Shown here: positions 1 to 38,313 of the stretch, in pieces
Numbering within the stretch: position 1 is the stretch's first letter
Layout: each line of letters begins with the position of its first letter
Origin: Escherichia coli
GTDB lineage: Bacteria; Pseudomonadota; Gammaproteobacteria; Enterobacterales; Enterobacteriaceae
Strand: one strand, 5' to 3'
DNA: 64,000 nt
Assembly: GCF_003790525.1 (NCBI RefSeq)
Contig: NZ_CP033635.1
Position numbers and translations under genes: made by a program
Notes under the pieces: generated by a model
The model's database searches: none
Told to the model about the DNA's origin: nothing
The model's input: the letters and a program-made list of their open reading frames with translations, nothing else

Positions 1-420
1 TTTGGCGATCCAGAAACCCAACCGATTATGCTGCGCATGAAGTCCGATCTGGTTGAACTCTGCCTGGCAGCCTGTGAAGGCAAGCTGGACGAGAAAACGT
101 CCGAGTGGGATGAACGCGCTTCTCTCGGCGTGGTGATGGCTGCGGGTGGATATCCGGGCGATTACCGCACCGGCGATGTGATCCACGGCCTGCCGCTGGA
201 AGAAGTGTCTGACGGCAAAGTGTTCCACGCGGGCACGAAACTGGCGGATGACGAGCAGGTAGTGACCAGCGGCGGGCGCGTACTGTGCGTCACCGCGCTG
301 GGTCATACCGTGGCAGAAGCGCAGAAACGCGCTTATGCCTTAATGACCGATATCCATTGGGACGACTGCTTCTGCCGGAAAGATATCGGCTGGCGCGCTA
401 TCGAACGCGAGCAGAACTAA
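1..420 (+). CDS. purD: Phosphoribosylamine-glycine ligase (GAR synthetase), C-terminal part; 5' end lies outside the window
   Basis: Frame-1 ORF ending at 420; translation ends ...[13 protein letters not shown], matching the PurD C-terminus as I recall it; position next to zraR fits K-12 order. Confidence 0.85.
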   Translation, partial: FGDPETQPIMLRMKSDLVELCLAACEGKLDEKTSEWDERASLGVVMAAGGYPGDYRTGDVIHGLPLEEVSDGKVFHAGTKLADDEQVVTSGGRVLCVTALGHTVAEAQKRAYALMTDIHWDDCFCRKDIGWRAIEREQN

Positions 421-1742
421 CGCGACAGTTTTGCCAAGAGCGTTTTGCGCGTGATCCCTAACTGACGGGCGGCTTCGGTTTTGTTGCCGCCCGTTTTCTC
501 CAGTGCCGCAAGAATCACCTCTTTTTCGACTTCCACCAGCGGCTGAATATCCTGACTTTGTACCAGCGGGATCGGCGTACTCGCAATCGCCAGCGGCAGC
601 TCGCGTTCGGAAATATATTCCCCGGTCAGCAGCACCACCGCCCGTTCCACCGCGTTTTCCAGTTCACGAATATTTCCCGGCCAGTCGTAGTGAATCAGCA
701 GATCCATCGCCTGGGGCGTAAAACCTTTTACCGCCTTGCGATTACGCTCGGCAAAGCGCTGAAGAAAATGGTTTGTCAGCAGAGGAATATCTTCCCGCCG
801 CTGACGCAGCGACGGAACTTCAATCGCCACCACGTTCAGGCGATAGTAGAGATCCTGGCGAAAACGCCCGGCATTCACCTCTGCGGCAAGATCGCGATGA
901 GTCGCCGCAATCAGCCGGACATCAACCGAGATGGTCTGGTTGCTGCCGACACGCTGAACTTCGCGCTCCTGAATCGCACGTAGCAGACGCACCTGCATCA
1001 TCGGCGAGATATCGCCAATTTCATCGAGAAACAACGTGCCGCCGTCCGCCTCAACAAAGCGCCCCTCCCGCCGTTTGTCGGCCCCGGTAAACGCCCCTTT
1101 TTCGTGACCGAACAATTCAGATTCCAGCAAGGATTCGTTGAGTGCCGCACAGTTGAGCGTTACCAGTGGTTTTTCACTCCGTGCGCTACTGGCGTGAATC
1201 GCCCTGGCGACCAGCTCTTTACCGGTGCCGGAATCGCCATGGATCAGCACCGTGGCTTCCGATGGCGCGACGAGGGCGATTTCACTGAGCAGGTGTTGCA
1301 TCGCCGGGCTTTTACCGACCATACCGAACTGGCTGGCAGACACCGCAGGCGTTTCAGCGTCAATACTGTGCGTATGCGCGAGGGCCTTTTCCAGCGTCGC
1401 CTGCAGGTTATCGAAATCCAGCGGCTTGATGAGATAATCCAGCGCCCCGGTTTTCAACGCCTCTACCGCCGTCTCGACGCTGGAGTACGCGGTCATAATC
1501 AGTACCGGAATTGCCGGATTTAACGCTTTGATCTCTTTGAGCGTGGCGATGCCGTCCATCTCTGCCATTCGCACATCGCAAAGCACAAGATCAAAAACCT
1601 GTTCCCGCACCTGCTCCAGCGCCTGTCGCCCGCTGTTCGCCAGCGCGACGTTATAGCCCCAGCCGCGCAGTAAAGCCTGCAAAATAGTGCAGTGGCTAAT
1701 GTCATCATCCACCACCAGAATATCGATATTATCGTGCGTCAT
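417..1742 (-). CDS. zraR: Sigma54-dependent two-component response regulator ZraR (HydG)
   Basis: 441 aa ORF with receiver domain, AAA+ sigma54-activator motifs ([14 protein letters not shown]) and C-terminal HTH; overlaps zraS stop by 4 nt. Confidence 0.93.
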
Positions 1743-3115
1743 CCTTGTGGGTCCTTACGCGTAATATTGACCGGAAGCCAGAGGGTGAACGTTGCGCCTT
1801 TTCCCTCCTGGCTTGCGACCTGAATTGTACCACCGTGTTGTTCAACAATATTATGCACGACCGCCAGCCCCAGTCCGGTGCCTTCGGCTTTGGTGGTGAA
1901 GTACGGGGTGAAGATGGCTTCAAGCTGATCTGCCGCAATTCCCTTACCGCTGTCGGTAACGCTGATTTTCACACCCGTGCCGCTTTCGCTGGCCGTCACG
2001 CTAATCACGCCATGCTGACCAATCGCCTGAATAGCATTGAGATAGAGATTCAACAGGACCTGAGTCAGCCTGTCCGGATCGGCCTGAATTTCCGGTAATG
2101 TGTCGTTGGCGGTAAAGCGTAACTGGATCTCCCGGCTGTTTGCATCCTGGCTTACCAGCTGTAATGAGTGGTTAATCAGCGTGTTGAGATCCACCGCCTG
2201 CAAAGCCAGATGCGTTGGCTTAACCAGTTCCAGCAACTCGCTTACCACGCGGTTTAAACGGTCGGCTTCTTTCGCCATCACCTGCGCCAGTTGATGCGCT
2301 TCTCCCCCTGCTGGCGCGCGTTCGGCAAAGTATTTCGCCAGCCCTTTAATCGAGGAAAGTGGGTTACGGATTTCGTGGGCAACACCTGCCGCAAGGTGCC
2401 CCAGCGCCACCAGCTTCTCTTTGCGCTTCATTTCATCCTGCAACAACTGGCGCGAGCGCAGATAGCGACGATACCAGAAGAATGACAACACGCTTGCCAG
2501 CAAGACCGTCGCCAGGGCGAAGAGGATAATCAGGGTGTTTCTCTGCTCACGATCTTCGGCACTCACAATGTTACTGGCGTCGAAAGCAATGAAAATTGCT
2601 TGTGGTGTCGCGGCATATTGCTGCATATGGCGCATCCGGTGCATTCCAGCAGCAAACATCGGTTGAAACTGGCGATAAATTTCCAGAACAGGCTCGCCGT
2701 CTGCGCTATCGATCCGCCGCCACGCTTCTTCATCTCCCGGATGTAACTGCTGCATTTCCTGCGGGGAATAAAGCTGTTTTCCCACCATGCCGGAGTTGCT
2801 ATGCATCACGATTGTTCCTTGTTCATCCGTGACCGCAAACCAACGTACACCAGGCTGCCCGGCCATTTCTTCCAGTAATGCCTGCTGCTGCGCATGATGC
2901 ATGCGCATCCCCATGCCGACGCGCGAGCCGGATTCGAGAGCACGGATAAGTACACTGCCTTTTTCCAGCAGCGTTTGTCTGGCGGCGGCAGTCTCGCGCC
3001 CATAATCGCGAATCACTGTCACCGCAAACAGCCCCACCAGCCCAACAATGACCACGGGGAGGATCGCGCTTAACCATTTAGCTAAGGAGTCTTTAGAACG
3101 TTGCATAAAACGCAT
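1739..3115 (-). CDS. zraS: Sensor histidine kinase ZraS (HydH)
   Basis: 458 aa ORF with transmembrane N-terminus and HisKA/HATPase motifs (HEIRNPL...); immediately upstream of zraR. Confidence 0.9.
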   Translation of the reverse strand: MRFMQRSKDSLAKWLSAILPVVIVGLVGLFAVTVIRDYGRETAAARQTLLEKGSVLIRALESGSRVGMGMRMHHAQQQALLEEMAGQPGVRWFAVTDEQGTIVMHSNSGMVGKQLYSPQEMQQLHPGDEEAWRRIDSADGEPVLEIYRQFQPMFAAGMHRMRHMQQYAATPQAIFIAFDASNIVSAEDREQRNTLIILFALATVLLASVLSFFWYRRYLRSRQLLQDEMKRKEKLVALGHLAAGVAHEIRNPLSSIKGLAKYFAERAPAGGEAHQLAQVMAKEADRLNRVVSELLELVKPTHLALQAVDLNTLINHSLQLVSQDANSREIQLRFTANDTLPEIQADPDRLTQVLLNLYLNAIQAIGQHGVISVTASESGTGVKISVTDSGKGIAADQLEAIFTPYFTTKAEGTGLGLAVVHNIVEQHGGTIQVASQEGKGATFTLWLPVNITRKDPQG

Positions 3116-3127
3116 CTTCTTCTTTGC

Positions 3128-3142
3128 CTGCTCATCCCTTTC
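3128..3142 (-). promoter_or_regulatory. Sigma54 (-24/-12) promoter for zraSR
   Basis: Reverse complement reads TGGCATGATTTCTGC, i.e. GG-N10-GC spacing of an RpoN promoter, upstream of zraS. Confidence 0.6.
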
Positions 3143-3213
3143 TGACAGCAGAAATCATGCCATCTTTTATCAGCGCTTACCCTGCGCTGTAACACAAAGG
3201 CTTAAGTTTCAAT

Positions 3214-3260
3214 GAGTAAAAATGACTCGCTACCCGCAGCAGGCGAGTCATTTTTACTCG
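3214..3260. promoter_or_regulatory. ZraR-binding inverted repeat (enhancer) between divergent zraP and zraSR
   Basis: Perfect 17-nt inverted repeat GAGTAAAAATGACTCGC ... GCGAGTCATTTTTACTC seen directly in the sequence. Confidence 0.7.
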
Positions 3261-3301
3261 TTTATCATGCCAGATTACCCGTCATATCAGCGTTTCGCCG
3301 T

Positions 3302-3317
3302 TGGCACGGAAGATGCA
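3302..3317 (+). promoter_or_regulatory. Sigma54 (-24/-12) promoter for zraP
   Basis: TGGCACGGAAGATGCA with GG-N10-GC spacing about 35 nt upstream of the zraP start. Confidence 0.65.
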
Positions 3318-3352
3318 ATACCCGAAGTAAGACAACCACTGGAGGATTAACC

Positions 3353-3772
3353 ATGAAACGGAACACGAAAATTGCCCTGGTAATGATGGCGCTTTCAGCA
3401 ATGGCGATGGGATCGACATCGGCATTTGCTCACGGCGGACATGGTATGTGGCAGCAAAATGCCGCGCCTTTGACCAGCGAACAACAGACAGTCTGGCAAA
3501 AAATTCATAATGACTTTTACGCCCAAAGCAGCGTGCTGCAACAAAAACTGGTGACGAAGCGTTATGAATACAACGCGTTGTTAGCCGCGAACCCACCGGA
3601 TAGCAGCAAAATCAATGCCGTTGCTAAAGAGATGGAAACGCTGCGTCAATCATTAGACGAGTTACGGGTTAAACGCGATATTGCGATGGCTGAAGCGGGT
3701 ATCCCGCGCGGTTGCGGTATGGGTTACGGTGGTTGCGATGGTGGCGGTCATATGGGTATGGGCCACTGGTAA
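3353..3772 (+). CDS. zraP: Zinc-resistance-associated periplasmic protein ZraP
   Basis: ATG at 3353 preceded by GGAGG; signal peptide MKRNTKIALVMMALSAMAMG and His/Gly-rich C-terminus; the longer ORF from 3212 is probably an upstream in-frame extension. Confidence 0.88.
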   Translation: MKRNTKIALVMMALSAMAMGSTSAFAHGGHGMWQQNAAPLTSEQQTVWQKIHNDFYAQSSVLQQKLVTKRYEYNALLAANPPDSSKINAVAKEMETLRQSLDELRVKRDIAMAEAGIPRGCGMGYGGCDGGGHMGMGHW

Positions 3773-7358: not shown

Positions 7359-8132
7359 TCACTCATACTCTGCCCGACACATCGCCACTGTATCTTCTAT
7401 CAGACGGCGCGCTACGGTGCCGGGCGGCGGGAGTAACGGCAAATCGTCATAGCGATACCAGTTCGCCTCAAGCAATTCTTTCGGGTCGATCACGATCTCG
7501 CCGCTGTCATATTCCGCCATAAACGCGGTCATTAAAGACTGAGGAAACGGCCACGGCTGGGAAGTCACGTAACGCAAGTTTTTAACTTTAATTCCGCTCT
7601 CTTCCATCACTTCCCGCGCGACAGCCTGCTCGAGGGTTTCGCCCACTTCGACGAATCCGGCAAGTACCGTATGGACACCGTTACGATGGCGGGTATGCTG
7701 GGCGAGGAGGATCGAATCATCGCGACGGATGGCAACAATAATGCAGGGGGCGATTTGCGGGTAGTAACGCTCACGGCAATGGCTGCACAGCATCGCCCAT
7801 TCGGTTTTGCTTGGATACATTTCATGCCCGCAGTAACCACAGTATTTATGCGATCGGTAAAACTCCGCCAGTTGCACGCCACGTCCGGCCAGTTGAAACA
7901 GCCCAACATCGAGATCAATGACCTGACGTACCGACCCCATATCGTGACGCCGCTGCTGTTGTACTAACCAAACAGGTTCCCCCTGCCATTCGCCGATTTG
8001 TAGTGCGCGCTGACCCACAAGATCGAAATTTGCCGCTTCGCCATATGGCAATTCTCCCTTCGGCAACCATAATTTTTGTTCATGGCTGACGACCCACCAG
8101 CCGTGATCTAATTTTTCAATTATACGATCCAT
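7359..8132 (-). CDS. nudC: NADH pyrophosphatase (Nudix hydrolase)
   Basis: 257 aa ORF with zinc-binding Cys cluster (CGYCGH...CSHC) and Nudix box (...[11 protein letters not shown]...). Confidence 0.93.
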
Positions 8133-8226
8133 AGCTCTTGCACTACCTTTGCATCACTGGCATGTTTAACATGGTTTTTACATTTCTCACTGAGCAGTTT
8201 TTGAATACAAACTTGCGGAGTCAATC

Positions 8227-17500: not shown

Positions 17501-18765
17501 AGTACCGGGTGTTCGCGGATAACTTCGTCCAGGATATCCCAAACGACAGCTTCTTCGCGCTCAACCATTTTCTTCGCAGCTTTAATGGTGGTAGCAAGAC
17601 CACGCAGTTCCAGCTTGCCGTAGATGAACGGTTTGAACAGCTCCAGTGCCATTTTCTTCGGCAGACCGCACTGATGCAGACGCAGGTATGGACCTACGGT
17701 GATTACAGAACGACCGGAGTAGTCAACACGCTTACCGAGCAGGTTCTGACGGAAACGACCCTGTTTACCTTTGATCATGTCGGCCAAAGATTTCAGAGGA
17801 CGCTTGTTAGAACCGGTGATTGCACGACCGCGACGACCGTTATCCAGCAGGGCGTCTACCGCTTCCTGCAGCATACGTTTTTCGTTACGTACGATGATGT
17901 CCGGCGCAGCCAGATCCAGCAGACGTTTCAGACGGTTGTTACGGTTAATGACGCGACGATACAGATCGTTCAGGTCAGAAGTCGCGAAACGACCACCATC
18001 CAGCGGAACCAGCGGACGCAGATCTGGCGGCAGTACCGGCAGAACGGTCAGGATCATCCACTCTGGTTTGTTACCAGACTGAACGAACGCTTCCAGCAGT
18101 TTGATACGCTTGGTCAGCTTTTTACGCTTGGTTTCGGAGTTGGTTTCGTTCAGCTCTTCACGCAGCTGTTCGCACTCTTGCTCCAGATCCATGCTCTTCA
18201 GCAGGGCCTGGATTGCTTCCGCACCCATCTTCGCGTCGAATTCGTCACCGAACTCTTCCAGCGCGTCCAGATACTGCTCTTCAGTCAGGATCTGCTGACG
18301 CTCCAGGTTGGTCATACCGCCTTCGATAACCACATAGGATTCGAAGTACAGTACGCGTTCGATATCGCGCAGCGGCATATCGAGCAGCAGGCCGATACGG
18401 GACGGCAGCGATTTCAGGAACCAGATGTGCGCAGTCGGGGAAGCCAGTTCGATGTGGCCCATACGCTCACGGCGTACTTTAGTCTGGGTCACTTCAACAC
18501 CGCACTTCTCACAGATGACGCCACGGTGTTTCAGGCGCTTGTACTTACCGCACAGGCACTCGTAATCTTTTACCGGCCCAAAGATACGGGCGCAGAAAAG
18601 GCCGTCACGTTCTGGTTTGAACGTACGGTAGTTGATGGTTTCCGGCTTTTTAACTTCACCGAAAGACCATGAACGGATCATGTCTGGCGAAGCCAGAGCA
18701 ATTTTGATCGCATCAAACTCTTCGGTTTTAGTCTGCGCTTTCAGAAACTTTAATAAATCTTTCAC
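14542..18765 (-). CDS. rpoC: DNA-directed RNA polymerase subunit beta'
   Basis: 1407 aa ORF; [33 protein letters not shown]..., zinc-binding Cys motifs and NADFDGD catalytic motif. Confidence 0.99.
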
Positions 18766-26636: not shown

Positions 26637-26804
26637 AAACCAACCTGTCAGAAGTTTTCTACAAACATTTTCACCCCGCGATCGCGAGGCAAACCAAATC
26701 GAAACGCGTATTAGCTTTTCGGATTATACGCCCTCAACAGAGCCTGTCTCAGCAATGATTATGACAAAGAAAATCACTGATGAGCCAGGTTCTGGTACGA
26801 AAGC

Positions 26805-26836
26805 GTGCAAAAAGGGCATCAAATGATGCCCTTTTA
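26805..26836 (-). terminator. tufB rho-independent terminator
   Basis: Minus-strand AAAAGGGCATCATTTGATGCCCTTTTTGCA hairpin with U-run, 30-60 nt after the tufB stop. Confidence 0.75.
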
Positions 26837-26865
26837 GTGCGCATTGCGTCAAATGTTATCGGCAA

Positions 26866-37455: not shown

Positions 37456-38313
37456 TCAGCCTAAAACTGCCAGTTTTTCGAGCGTTTCGAAGCCGTAACG
37501 CTGTAAAACGGGCAATAATTGTTCAGCTTCTGGCGTCATTGCCATACAAAAGGCAATATTCGCATCGGCAGATTTTGCATCCGGGGCTTCATGTTCTAAC
37601 AGCCAGGCCGTTCGGCGAGCAATCGCTGCGCCAGAATCCACCAGCCGGGTTCCCTCTGGCAGCACCTGTAACAGTTCTTCTTGTAGTAGAGGGAAATGGG
37701 TACACCCCAGTACAACGGTATCTGGCGGCTCTTTCATTCTTAACCACGGACGCAAGATACGTTTTAGCGCATCCAGAGAAACATCTTCGCCATGCAGCTT
37801 CGCTTCAGCCAACTCAACCATCTCTGCCGAACCCAGCATTTCTATCTGGCATTCATTAGCGAAACGCGCGATCAGCTCATGAGTATAAGAACGTTTAACT
37901 GTTCCGCGGGTTGCCAGTAATCCGACAATGCCATTTGCCGTCAGACGTGCAGCAGGTTTAATCGCCGGCACGACACCAACAACCGGGAAGTCGAACTTTT
38001 CGCGTAATGCAGGAAGTGAAACGGTACTGGCAGTGTTGCAAGCGACCACAGCCAGCGCAAGGGGATAACGTTTTTGCACTGCGGTGACAATTGCCACCAC
38101 TCGCTCAACAATAAACGCTTCGCTTTTTTCGCCATACGGGAAAGCGACGTTATCGAAAGCATAAATGTAATGGAGATCCGGTAAGAGATGCCGGATCTCG
38201 TCATAGACCGACAACCCACCGACGCCGGAGTCAAACACCAGCACGGTGGGACGTGGTTCAGAAGGTGTAGCTGCCAGACAAGGTGTATTCCCGTCCTGCA
38301 GTTTGGTAGCCAT
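37456..38313 (-). CDS. murI: Glutamate racemase MurI
   Basis: Start placed at [33 protein letters not shown] (285 aa); the ORF track starts 4 codons upstream; overlaps btuB 3' end by 56 nt. Confidence 0.93.

What the first reader, a model, noticed from the sequence alone, without database searches (positions are those of the whole stretch)
3128..3317. zraP/zraSR divergent control region with a perfect 17-nt inverted repeat between two sigma54 promoters
Two back-to-back GG-N10-GC elements (TGGCATGATTTCTGC on the minus strand, TGGCACGGAAGATGCA on the plus strand) flank the perfect inverted repeat GAGTAAAAATGACTCGC ... GCGAGTCATTTTTACTC. This is the expected ZraR enhancer architecture; it is known biology but is unusually clean in the raw sequence.
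Basis: partly seen in the sequence, partly recalled or inferred. Interest (0 to 1): 0.15.

Follow-up and report, generated by a model that had tools for sequence, protein, structure and literature searches.

The report
Known zraP/zraSR zinc-response control region
This is the well-studied E. coli switch between the zraP and zraSR genes: two back-to-back sigma-54 promoters sharing one binding platform for the activator ZraR. It is real and cleanly readable, but it is ordinary, already-known biology.

Summary
The window is E. coli (100% identical to strain SMS-3-5 here). The 237-bp spacer (3116-3352) lies between zraS (minus strand) and zraP (plus strand).

It holds TGGCATGATTTCTGC (3162 to 3148, minus), TGGCACGGAAGATGCA (3302-3317, plus) and a perfect 17-nt inverted repeat (3214-3230 / 3243-3259).

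- **Promoters.** With a sigma-54 matrix built from 40 other ChIP-seq sites, the two promoters rank first and second of about 128,000 positions in the window. Their 17-mers are identical to published sigma-54 ChIP-seq sites OS38 and OS39.
- **Activator site.** The main published ZraR ChIP-exo peak maps to window ~3223-3255, centred on the repeat.
- **Conservation.** Across 17 loci from five genera only four blocks are conserved: both promoters and both repeat arms.

One refinement: each arm is itself a 15-bp dyad (GRGT-N7-ACYC). The enhancer is therefore best read as two ZraR dimer sites exactly 31 bp apart, as for NtrC.

Novelty: already known.

Side observations: a one-helical-turn (11 bp) indel on the zraP side in Escherichia; a sharp two-allele dimorphism of the ZraS periplasmic sensor domain in E. 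coli (4183 versus 1236 genomes).

The parts
417..1742 (-). zraR: sigma-54-dependent response regulator (bacterial enhancer-binding protein, bEBP) with receiver, AAA+ sigma-54-interaction (GAFTGA loop) and HTH_8 DNA-binding domains
   Evidence: ORF; NCBIfam ZraR equivalog 995 bits vs cutoff 760; Pfam Response_reg, Sigma54_activat, AAA_lid_14, HTH_8; 99% identical to the K-12-type ZraR; PDB 1OJL is ZraR
1739..3115 (-). zraS: sensor histidine kinase, first gene of the zraSR operon
   Evidence: ORF; NCBIfam ZraS equivalog 889 bits vs cutoff 479; HisKA and HATPase_c domains; PGAP annotation of the identical record
3147..3163 (-). PzraSR sigma-54 promoter, 17-mer ATGGCATGATTTCTGCT (GG 3161-3160, GC 3149-3148). 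Inferred transcription start ~3136, giving a 21-nt leader
   Evidence: matrix rank 1 of the window, 17.9 bits; identical to ChIP-seq site OS39; start rule is motif centre + 19; 14 of 16 positions invariant across 12 sequences from 5 genera
3214..3228 (.). ZraR site 1: 15-bp dyad GAGTAAAAATGACTC, centre 3221 (-85 from the inferred zraS start, -107 from the zraP start)
   Evidence: 12 of 15 positions invariant; present in all 17 loci as GRGTAAAAA(T/C)GACYC; partly under ChIP-exo peak_9
3229..3244 (.). 16-bp spacer between the two dyad cores: variable in sequence, fixed in length
   Evidence: 2 of 16 positions invariant; site centres 31 bp apart in all 17 loci
3245..3259 (.). ZraR site 2: 15-bp dyad GAGTCATTTTTACTC, the reverse complement of site 1, centre 3252 (-76 from the inferred zraP start, -116 from the zraS start)
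   Evidence: 14 of 15 positions invariant; present in all 17 loci; partly under ChIP-exo peak_9
3211..3262 (.). Together this is the ZraR enhancer (upstream activating sequence)
   Evidence: ZraR ChIP-exo peak_9 maps to ~3223-3255
3301..3317 (+). PzraP sigma-54 promoter, 17-mer TTGGCACGGAAGATGCA (GG 3303-3304, GC 3315-3316). Inferred transcription start ~3328, giving a 25-nt leader
   Evidence: matrix rank 2, 15.6 bits; identical to ChIP-seq site OS38 and to the Salmonella site; 13 of 16 positions invariant
3353..3772 (+). zraP: periplasmic zinc-binding chaperone and feedback modulator (ribosome-binding site GGAGGA at 3341-3346)
   Evidence: NCBIfam ZraP equivalog 277 bits vs cutoff 200; Pfam Metal_resist; PGAP annotation

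Best explanation
This is the divergent control region of the E. coli ZraPSR envelope-stress / zinc-response system.

- Two sigma-54 promoters face outward: PzraSR on the minus strand and PzraP on the plus strand.
- Sigma-54 holoenzyme occupies both.
- ZraR occupies the DNA between them, and zraP and zraS transcription in zinc depends on zraR.

**Inferred from anatomy and from established knowledge of NtrC-family activators**
- The enhancer consists of two 15-bp dyad sites (GRGT-N7-ACYC), each bound by one dimer of ZraR's C-terminal Fis-type helix-turn-helix domains.
- The sites are 31 bp apart, about three helical turns, so they lie on the same DNA face and in mirror orientation.
- On phosphorylation by ZraS (in response to periplasmic Zn2+/Pb2+ or envelope stress), ZraR dimers on the two sites nucleate an AAA+ hexamer.
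- A short DNA loop brings the hexamer to the closed complexes about 50-60 bp away. I found no IHF consensus that might assist the bend.
- ATP hydrolysis, acting through the GAFTGA loop, then opens the promoters at about 3328 (zraP) and 3136 (zraS).
- The outcome is strong induction of zraP, positive autoregulation of zraSR, and negative feedback through periplasmic ZraP.
For: **Sequence.** Both -24/-12 elements and the repeat are at the stated coordinates.

**Promoter strength.** An independent matrix ranks the two promoters first and second in the window.

**Sigma-54 binding.**
- The identical 17-mers are sigma-54 ChIP-seq sites OS38 and OS39 in MG1655, with predicted starts 25 and 21 nt upstream of zraP and zraS.
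- The Salmonella homologues are sigma-54-bound and induced 16-fold (zraP) and 3.7-fold (hydHG) by a constitutive bEBP.
- RpoN holoenzyme SELEX also hits this spacer.

**ZraR binding.**
- ChIP-exo peak_9 (signal-to-noise 73) at MG1655 4201786-4201818 maps to window ~3223-3255. The repeat's centre is 3236.5.
- In genomic SELEX cloning, 81 of 86 ZraR clones came from this spacer.

**Function.** A zraR knockout in ZnCl2 lowers zraP by 12.7 log2 units and zraS by 3.2.

**Proteins.** ZraR has receiver, Sigma54_activat, lid and HTH_8 domains and the GAFTGA motif.

**Phylogenetic footprint.**
- In 12 sequences from Escherichia, Salmonella, Citrobacter, Kosakonia and [Enterobacter] lignolyticus, 53 of 62 positions in the four elements are invariant. 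The figures elsewhere are 2 of 16 in the spacer and 6 of 93 in the two inter-element stretches.
- Site-to-site spacing is 31 bp in all 17 loci. The distance from the PzraS GG to site 1 is 59.5-60.5 bp in all of them.
- The only substitutions at the outer four positions of the dyad cores are at the symmetric positions 2 and 14 (A/G and T/C). This fits recognition of dyad half-sites.
Against: - Transcription starts are inferred from motif geometry, not mapped here. EcoCyc listed both promoters only as 'predicted' in 2015.
- The original footprinting paper (Leonhartsberger et al. 2001, J Mol Biol 307:93) is not in the held library. Nucleotide-level protection therefore rests on the 33-bp ChIP-exo peak and on conservation.
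- ChIP-exo peak_9 covers the inner parts of both sites plus the spacer rather than two separate footprints. It cannot on its own separate 'two dimer sites' from 'one long operator'.
- The central heptamer AAAAATG is as conserved as the half-sites. Simple half-site recognition does not explain that; DNA shape or bending may matter.
- A second ChIP-exo peak over the zraP start codon (window 3343-3368) is unexplained.
- Unstimulated zraS expression does not depend on ZraR (log2 fold change -0.02). A basal promoter must therefore exist, but the sigma-70 scan of 3000-3500 found none.
Confidence: 0.95

Rival explanations
1. The repeat is one long operator. Each 17-nt arm is a half-site for a single ZraR dimer or tetramer, which is the reading implied by 'a perfect 17-nt inverted repeat'. 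On this view there are not two independent dyad sites.
For: - Overall two-fold symmetry, including the asymmetric AAAAATG/CATTTTT cores, is conserved in all 17 loci.
- A single 33-bp ChIP-exo peak spans the middle of the repeat.
Against: - Each arm contains its own dyad, GAGT-N7-ACTC.
- Its half-sites are 11 bp apart centre to centre. From my knowledge of NtrC's TGCACC-N5-GGTGCA, that is the geometry of NtrC-family sites.
- Arm centres are 31 bp apart, too far for one helix-turn-helix dimer.
- The symmetric positions 2 and 14 within an arm are the ones that vary.
- The bases that extend the arms from 15 to 17 nt are not conserved.
- From memory, the 2001 footprinting paper describes 'two inverted repeats' separated by a spacer. 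I could not check this.
Confidence: 0.07
2. The repeat acts as a nucleic-acid hairpin: a bidirectional transcription terminator, an RNA element, or a supercoil-driven cruciform. On this view it is not a protein-binding site.
For: - As single-stranded DNA it folds at -18.8 kcal/mol, z-score -9.1 against shuffles.
- There is a sub-threshold hairpin-type Rfam hit (plant miRNA family, 21.8 bits against a gathering score of 44, E = 0.24).
Against: - It lies upstream of both inferred transcription starts, so neither known promoter transcribes it.
- The scan found no terminator-like site, and the T-run lies inside the stem rather than after it.
- Conservation follows the protein-site pattern. Cores are invariant while the stem-extending bases and the loop vary, and no compensatory pairing changes between the arms are needed.
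- ZraR occupies it in vivo.
- The Rfam hit is far below threshold and biologically irrelevant.
Confidence: 0.02
3. The region encodes a small protein. Candidates are the 42-codon ORF at 3222-3350, which PGAP annotates as a hypothetical protein in SMS-3-5, and the 186-codon N-terminally extended ZraP ORF from 3212.
For: - PGAP calls WP_001298656.1 at this position in SMS-3-5, and some other genomes also list a 'hypothetical protein' under the match.
- Some database entries use a 183-186 aa ZraP.
Against: - The ORF has no family hit in NCBIfam or Pfam.
- Its ATG is simply part of the conserved ZraR site (AAAAATGAC).
- It starts upstream of the PzraP transcription start.
- The 11-bp indel in other genera shifts its frame.
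- The true ZraP start at 3353 has a GGAGGA ribosome-binding site and a signal-peptide-like N-terminus, and it matches the NCBIfam model from profile position 1.
Confidence: 0.01

Closest known systems
E. coli K-12 zraP-zraSR (formerly hydHG) intergenic control region (Leonhartsberger et al. 2001; sigma-54 ChIP-seq sites OS38/OS39; ZraR ChIP-exo)
   Same: It is the same locus. The spacer has the same 237-bp length. Both 17-mer promoter motifs, both ZraR sites and the spacer between them are identical. Over 3100-3360 a K-12-serotype genome is 99.2% identical.
   Different: There are only two substitutions, at window 3296-3297 just upstream of the PzraP -24 element (GC here, AT in the K-12-like strain). 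The flanking coding sequence differs much more: the ZraS periplasmic domain and the 3' half of zraP.
Salmonella / Citrobacter / Kosakonia / [Enterobacter] lignolyticus zraP-zraSR control regions
   Same: They have the same four elements in the same order and orientation. Site-to-site spacing is 31 bp and PzraS-to-site-1 spacing is ~60 bp. Sigma-54 binding is shown in Salmonella.
   Different: Site 2 lies 62.5 bp from the PzraP GG, against 51.5 bp in Escherichia (50.5 bp in E. albertii). That is one helical turn further. Half-site position 2 is often G (GGGT/ACCC).
NtrC enhancer at glnAp2
   Same: In both, an NtrC-family response regulator binds two dyad sites about three helical turns apart upstream of a sigma-54 promoter and oligomerises on them. 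The glnAp2 site positions (-140/-108, 32 bp apart) are from my own knowledge.
   Different: - The recognition sequence differs: GRGT-N7-ACYC here, TGCACC-N5-GGTGCA for NtrC.
- The zra enhancer sits closer to its promoters (-76/-107 and -85/-116).
- It serves two divergent promoters.
FhlA-dependent divergent hycA / hypA sigma-54 promoters
   Same: Both have two outward-facing sigma-54 promoters in one spacer that depend on the same activator. Sites OS27 and OS28 have motif centres 128 bp apart, against 154 bp here.
   Different: The activator family branch differs (FhlA is not a response regulator) and so does the site (CATTTCGTACGAAATG).

Membership tests
Sigma-54 (RpoN)-dependent promoter | GG and GC doublets exactly 10 nt apart within TGGCAC-N5-TTGCW | tested here: met
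   Both sites match. A matrix from 40 independent ChIP-seq sites scores them 17.9 and 15.6 bits, ranks 1 and 2 in the window and within the training range of 9.3-21.8.
Sigma-54 (RpoN)-dependent promoter | Occupied by sigma-54 holoenzyme | tested here: met
   This was not an experiment of mine. The window's 17-mers are identical to MG1655 ChIP-seq sites OS38 (fold above threshold, FAT, 39) and OS39 (FAT 9). RpoN SELEX also hits this spacer, and there is Salmonella ChIP-chip evidence.
Sigma-54 (RpoN)-dependent promoter | Oriented towards, and close upstream of, a gene | tested here: met
   Inferred starts at 3328 and 3136 give leaders of 25 nt (zraP) and 21 nt (zraS).
Sigma-54 (RpoN)-dependent promoter | Transcription start mapped 12 nt downstream of the GC and lost in an rpoN mutant | not testable with these tools
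   Starts are inferred from geometry. EcoCyc status in 2015 was 'predicted'. The primary 2001 paper is not held.
bEBP enhancer (NtrC-type upstream activating sequence) | A cognate activator with an AAA+ sigma-54-interaction domain (GAFTGA) and a DNA-binding domain is encoded nearby | tested here: met
   ZraR at 417-1742 has Sigma54_activat (7.9e-74) and HTH_8 (5.6e-15). GAFTGA is visible in the translation. It meets the ZraR equivalog model.
bEBP enhancer (NtrC-type upstream activating sequence) | Dyad-symmetric sites of ~15-17 bp, two or more, in helical phase, about 70-150 bp upstream of the start | tested here: met
   There are two GAGT-N7-ACTC dyads with centres 31 bp apart in all 17 loci. 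They lie at -76/-107 (zraP) and -85/-116 (zraS) relative to the inferred starts.
bEBP enhancer (NtrC-type upstream activating sequence) | Bound by the activator | tested here: met
   Evidence is from the literature, mapped here. ZraR ChIP-exo peak_9 corresponds to window ~3223-3255. Genomic SELEX found this spacer as the single high-affinity target. A nucleotide-resolution footprint was not available.
bEBP enhancer (NtrC-type upstream activating sequence) | Evolutionary conservation of the sites but not of the surrounding spacer | tested here: met
   26 of 30 site positions are invariant, against 2 of 16 in the spacer and 6 of 93 in the flanking inter-element DNA.
ZraPSR locus (orthology) | The three genes meet curated equivalog cutoffs and show the zraR-zraS / zraP divergent arrangement and synteny | tested here: met
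   NCBIfam NF007689, NF007688 and NF008584 are all above cutoff. The order purD-zraR-zraS | zraP-yjaH-hupA matches annotated genomes. The same neighbours occur in five genera.
Intrinsic terminator (considered and rejected) | G+C-rich stem with a short loop, followed by a T-run | tested here: not met
   The scan of 3000-3500 found none. The stem is A+T-rich, the loop is 10-12 nt, and there is no trailing T-run.
IHF-assisted sigma-54 promoter (considered) | An IHF consensus WATCAANNNNTTR between enhancer and promoter | tested here: not met
   No match with one mismatch or fewer on either strand of 3116-3352. Consensus absence does not exclude weak IHF binding.

The most novel reading that the evidence does not exclude
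The enhancer may be a rigid, two-fold-symmetric module in which a single ZraR oligomer, assembled on two mirror-image sites, serves both promoters through short loops that need no IHF and depend on helical phase.

- **Spacing.** Site-to-site spacing is 31 bp and the distance to the PzraS -24 GG (measured from site 1) is ~60 bp in five genera. The only length change seen in these loci is an 11-bp deletion (12 bp in E. albertii), about one helical turn, on the zraP side in Escherichia.
- **Flanks.** The control region stays essentially unchanged while the periplasm-facing coding segments on both sides (the ZraS sensor domain and the ZraP C-terminal half) have been replaced by highly divergent alleles.
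- **Implication.** Zinc-sensing properties measured in K-12 may not hold for the 77% of E. coli genomes that carry the other sensor allele.
Probability: 0.3. Interest if true: 0.3.

Novelty: already known. Interest (0 to 1): 0.1.

Why it matters
For the finding itself there is little at stake. It re-identifies a textbook-type sigma-54 / enhancer-binding-protein control region that has been characterised since 2001 and re-confirmed by ChIP-seq, ChIP-exo and SELEX. It already serves as the PzraP zinc biosensor promoter.

Its value is as a positive control. A reader working from raw sequence alone recovered promoter, enhancer and gene identities correctly.

The comparative details add modest mechanistic constraints: a dyad-within-arm structure, fixed 31-bp and ~60-bp spacings, and a one-turn indel. 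Biosensor designers could use these.

The side observation matters more. The ZraS sensor domain exists as two alleles about 60% identical at protein level, and K-12 carries the minority one. This could matter to anyone extrapolating K-12 zinc or envelope-stress sensing to other E. coli.

Tried and rejected
**Literature**
- The original footprinting paper (PubMed 11243806) is not held. My recollection that it describes 'two inverted repeats separated by a spacer' is therefore marked as memory only.
- Full-text searches for the site sequence and its sub-strings returned nothing or only unrelated primers.
- Searches combining Leonhartsberger, zraP and 'inverted repeats' found nothing. The one paper holding ZraR, zraP and 'inverted repeat' was irrelevant.
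- A badly specified search on zraS alleles returned only irrelevant papers. A narrower one found no report of sensor-domain dimorphism.

**Fetching relatives**
- The genome-contig scan with ZraP returned only Escherichia and Citrobacter.
- I reached Salmonella, C. rodentium, C. freundii, Kosakonia and [E.] lignolyticus through protein hits and contig look-ups instead.

**Scans of the region**
- Sigma-70 promoter and terminator scan of 3000-3500: none found.
- IHF consensus scan: none found.
- Rfam at a permissive threshold: one meaningless sub-threshold miRNA-hairpin hit.

**A misleading count**
- A 58-bp blastn of the repeat gave a median of 2 places per genome. I think this is the palindrome matching itself on the other strand, because the 261-bp megablast gave a median of 1. 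I did not check it record by record.

**Elements considered and rejected**
- The 42-codon PGAP ORF and the extended 186-codon ZraP ORF are not real genes (see rival explanations).
- A second TGGCATGAT on the minus strand (3272-3264) is not a promoter. It has no GC at -12 and is not conserved outside E. coli-like sequences.

**A side hypothesis tested and rejected**
- I asked whether divergence in the zraP 3' half co-segregates with the ZraS sensor allele. It does not: the split is 24 versus 5396 genomes, not 4183 versus 1236.

Full report
**Where the window comes from**

The stretch 3100-3360 is 100% identical to Escherichia coli SMS-3-5 (NC_010498.1). It is present once in 5419 of 5426 complete E. 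coli genomes, at 99% identity or more in 3216 of them. PGAP annotates the surroundings as purD, zraR, zraS | zraP, yjaH, hupA, yjaG, nfi, hemE.

The ORF list gives zraR at 417-1742 (minus), zraS at 1739-3115 (minus) and zraP at 3353-3772 (plus). All three exceed the curated NCBIfam equivalog cutoffs (ZraR 995/760, ZraS 889/479, ZraP 277/200 bits). ZraR has receiver, Sigma54_activat, AAA-lid and HTH_8 domains, and the GAFTGA motif is visible in the translation. The finding therefore sits in the 237-bp zraS-zraP spacer, 3116-3352.

**The observation**

- TGGCATGATTTCTGC lies on the minus strand at 3162 to 3148.
- TGGCACGGAAGATGCA lies on the plus strand at 3302-3317.
- The perfect 17-nt inverted repeat is at 3214-3230 / 3243-3259, with a 12-nt gap. 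It can be extended to 20-nt arms at 95%.

The repeat is the longest inverted repeat in the window. It never arose in 100 Markov simulations.

The loose -24/-12 pattern is not enriched by itself: 3 matches against 1.9 expected. I scored both strands of the window with it. The zraS-side and zraP-side sites rank first and second of about 128,000 positions (17.9 and 15.6 bits).

One hit of that strength is expected about once per simulated window. The meaningful signal is two hits in one spacer, facing outward, 21 and 25 nt from start codons.

- *Sigma-54 binding.* The window's 17-mers are identical to MG1655 sigma-54 ChIP-seq sites OS38 (TTGGCACGGAAGATGCA, zraP) and OS39 (ATGGCATGATTTCTGCT, zraS). 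That paper's start rule (motif centre + 19) puts the starts at window 3328 and 3136.
- *Salmonella.* The equivalent sites bind sigma-54, and the genes are induced by a promiscuous activator (PMC3844500).
- *Holoenzyme SELEX.* RpoN holoenzyme SELEX also picks out this spacer (PMC8743547).
- *ZraR ChIP-exo.* The supplement of PMC7657598 lists peak_9 (signal-to-noise 73) at MG1655 4201786-4201818, which is 98 bp from zraP and 107 bp from zraS. The K-12 spacer has the same 237-bp length. I therefore map MG1655 coordinate = 4205041 minus window coordinate. This places the peak at about 3223-3255, centred within 3 bp of the repeat's centre (3236.5).
- *Knockout.* In the same data set a zraR knockout in zinc lowers zraP by 12.7 log2 units and zraS by 3.2.
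- *ZraR SELEX.* Genomic SELEX found this spacer to be ZraR's single high-affinity target (81 of 86 clones; PMC8249747).

**Comparative evidence gathered here**

I collected orthologous spacers from other Escherichia species and Citrobacter. Through ZraP homologues and contig look-ups I added Salmonella, C. rodentium, C. freundii, Kosakonia and [Enterobacter] lignolyticus.

The alignment is a clean phylogenetic footprint.

| Segment | Invariant positions |
|---|---|
| PzraS element | 14 of 16 |
| Site 1 | 12 of 15 |
| Site 2 | 14 of 15 |
| PzraP element | 13 of 16 |
| Spacer between the sites | 2 of 16 |
| Other inter-element DNA | 6 of 93 |

**Refinement of the repeat**

Each arm is itself a dyad, GAGT-N7-ACTC, and these are the only two matches to that pattern in 64 kb. 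Across 17 loci the cores read GRGTAAAAA(T/C)GACYC and GRGTCATTTTTACTC. Apart from one central T-to-C change in E. albertii, variation is confined to the symmetric positions 2 and 14. The two centres are always exactly 31 bp apart. The two bases that stretch the perfect arms from 15 to 17 nt are not conserved.

This is the geometry of NtrC-family enhancers: two dimer sites three helical turns apart. It is not the geometry of one long operator. The non-palindromic centre (AAAAATG versus CATTTTT) gives each site a polarity. The mirror arrangement, with A-tracts outward, is conserved everywhere, so the enhancer as a whole has a two-fold axis matching its two divergent promoters.

**Spacing to the promoters**

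From the PzraS GG to the centre of site 1 is 59.5-60.5 bp in every locus. From the centre of site 2 to the PzraP GG is 62.5 bp in Salmonella, Citrobacter, Kosakonia and [E.] lignolyticus. In Escherichia it is 51.5 bp, and 50.5 bp in E. albertii.

By parsimony, Escherichia lost about one helical turn (11 bp). This preserves the rotational phase between enhancer and promoter.

I found no IHF consensus, no sigma-70-like promoter and no terminator-like site in the region.

**Mechanism**

*Inferred from family knowledge:*
1. ZraS phosphorylates ZraR.
2. ZraR dimers on the two sites nucleate an AAA+ hexamer.
3. A short DNA loop brings the hexamer to the closed complexes.
4. ATP hydrolysis through the GAFTGA loop opens the promoters.
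5. ZraP is induced strongly, zraSR is positively autoregulated, and ZraP feeds back negatively.

**Rivals**
- *Hairpin, terminator or cruciform.* The strand would fold well (-18.8 kcal/mol, z-score -9.1). But it lies upstream of both starts, has no terminator features, shows a protein-site conservation pattern, and is bound by ZraR. The only Rfam hit is a chance sub-threshold miRNA hairpin.
- *Small protein.* The 42-codon PGAP 'hypothetical protein' (3222-3350) has no family hit. Its ATG is part of the ZraR site, and its frame is broken by the 11-bp indel in other genera.

**Verdict**

This is a known system seen in another E. coli strain. It differs from K-12 by two substitutions at 3296-3297 that lie outside every element. 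Novelty: already known. Interest is low.

**Seen in passing**
- *ZraS sensor domain.* Comparison with a K-12-type genome shows that the control region and most of zraR and zraS are 96-100% identical. The segment ~2550-3030, which encodes the ZraS periplasmic domain, falls to 38-78% nucleotide identity with sharp edges.
- *Two alleles in E. coli.* Reciprocal searches split E. coli cleanly. 4183 genomes carry the window-type allele and 1236 carry the K-12 type; of the latter, 967 are at 99% or more and 269 at 90-95%. There are no intermediates.
- *Allele relationships.* The K-12 type is shared with E. whittamii (93% amino-acid identity) and E. albertii (84%). The window type is shared with a cryptic-clade Escherichia (92%). 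The two types are only about 60% identical to each other, as far apart as either is from Salmonella. The cytoplasmic domain is 96-98% identical across the genus.
- *zraP 3' half.* The 3' half of zraP in this window is a rare allele: 99% or more in only 24 of 5420 genomes, and 80-90% in the rest.
- I found no report of the sensor-domain dimorphism in the held literature, but that search was shallow.

Noticed in passing
window ~2550-3030 (zraS codons ~30-190, periplasmic sensor domain): There is a sharp allelic dimorphism.
- This segment is only 38-78% identical in nucleotides to the K-12-type allele (~60% in amino acids, 7 residues shorter), while the flanks are 96-100% identical.
- Among complete E. 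coli genomes, 4183 carry the window type and 1236 the K-12 type, with no intermediates.
- The K-12 type is shared with E. whittamii and E. albertii. The window type is shared with a cryptic-clade Escherichia.
- This looks like a trans-specific polymorphism or cassette-like recombination of the sensor domain. K-12 carries the minority allele.
- The window-type domain has no relative among solved PDB structures by sequence search.
   Followed up: partly
window 3500-3772 (3' half of zraP): The allele in this window is rare. It is 99% or more identical in only 24 of 5420 E. coli genomes and 80-90% identical in 5396. The protein is nevertheless ~95-96% identical to common ZraP. The pattern suggests import from a diverged lineage. 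It does not co-segregate with the ZraS sensor allele.
   Followed up: partly
window 3260-3301, compared with L009-L018 at ~1396-1448: There is an 11-bp length difference (12 bp in E. albertii), about one helical turn, between ZraR site 2 and the PzraP -24 element. The distance is 51.5 bp in Escherichia and 62.5 bp in Salmonella, Citrobacter, Kosakonia and [E.] lignolyticus. All other inter-element spacings are fixed.
   Followed up: yes
window 3179-3199: A semi-conserved block, ACCCTG...ACACAAAG, lies between the PzraS -24 element and ZraR site 1. It has no mirror counterpart on the zraP side. It matches neither the IHF nor the sigma-70 consensus. It may be a site for another regulator, or part of the ZraR-independent basal zraSR promoter implied by the knockout data.
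   Followed up: partly
window 3343-3368 (zraP ribosome-binding site and start codon): A second ZraR ChIP-exo peak (peak_8, signal-to-noise 34, MG1655 4201673-4201698) maps here, about +16 to +41 from the inferred zraP start. There is no ZraR-like dyad in it. It may reflect indirect cross-linking through the looped promoter complex.
   Followed up: no
window 3222-3350 and 3212-3772: Two likely annotation artefacts.
- PGAP annotates a 42-aa hypothetical protein (WP_001298656.1) that starts inside ZraR site 1.
- Some database entries use a 183-186-aa N-terminally extended ZraP.
The 42-aa ORF has no family support. Both start upstream of the PzraP transcription start.
   Followed up: partly
window 3264-3272 (minus strand): A second copy of TGGCATGAT lies 110 bp from the real PzraS -24 element. 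It has no GC at the -12 position and is not conserved in E. albertii or other genera. It is probably a chance or decayed half-promoter.
   Followed up: partly
window 26751-26767 (-), 8137-8153 (+), 37618-37634 (-), 7729-7745 (+): These are the next-best sigma-54 matrix hits in the window (14.4, 14.0, 13.7 and 13.3 bits). All are below the level expected by chance for the best hit in a window of this size. An imperfect 22-nt inverted repeat lies at 26800-26845, near the first of them.
   Followed up: no
L003 (E. coli 2018-05-2CC, NZ_AP027877.1): In this strain zraS is annotated as a truncated pseudogene. The control region is the most divergent seen in E. coli (93.9% over 261 bp).
   Followed up: no
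H56, plasmid NC_011416.1 of E. coli SE11, 17888-18078: A plasmid-borne gene annotated as ZraP is ~70% identical in nucleotides to the chromosomal zraP 3' half.
   Followed up: no
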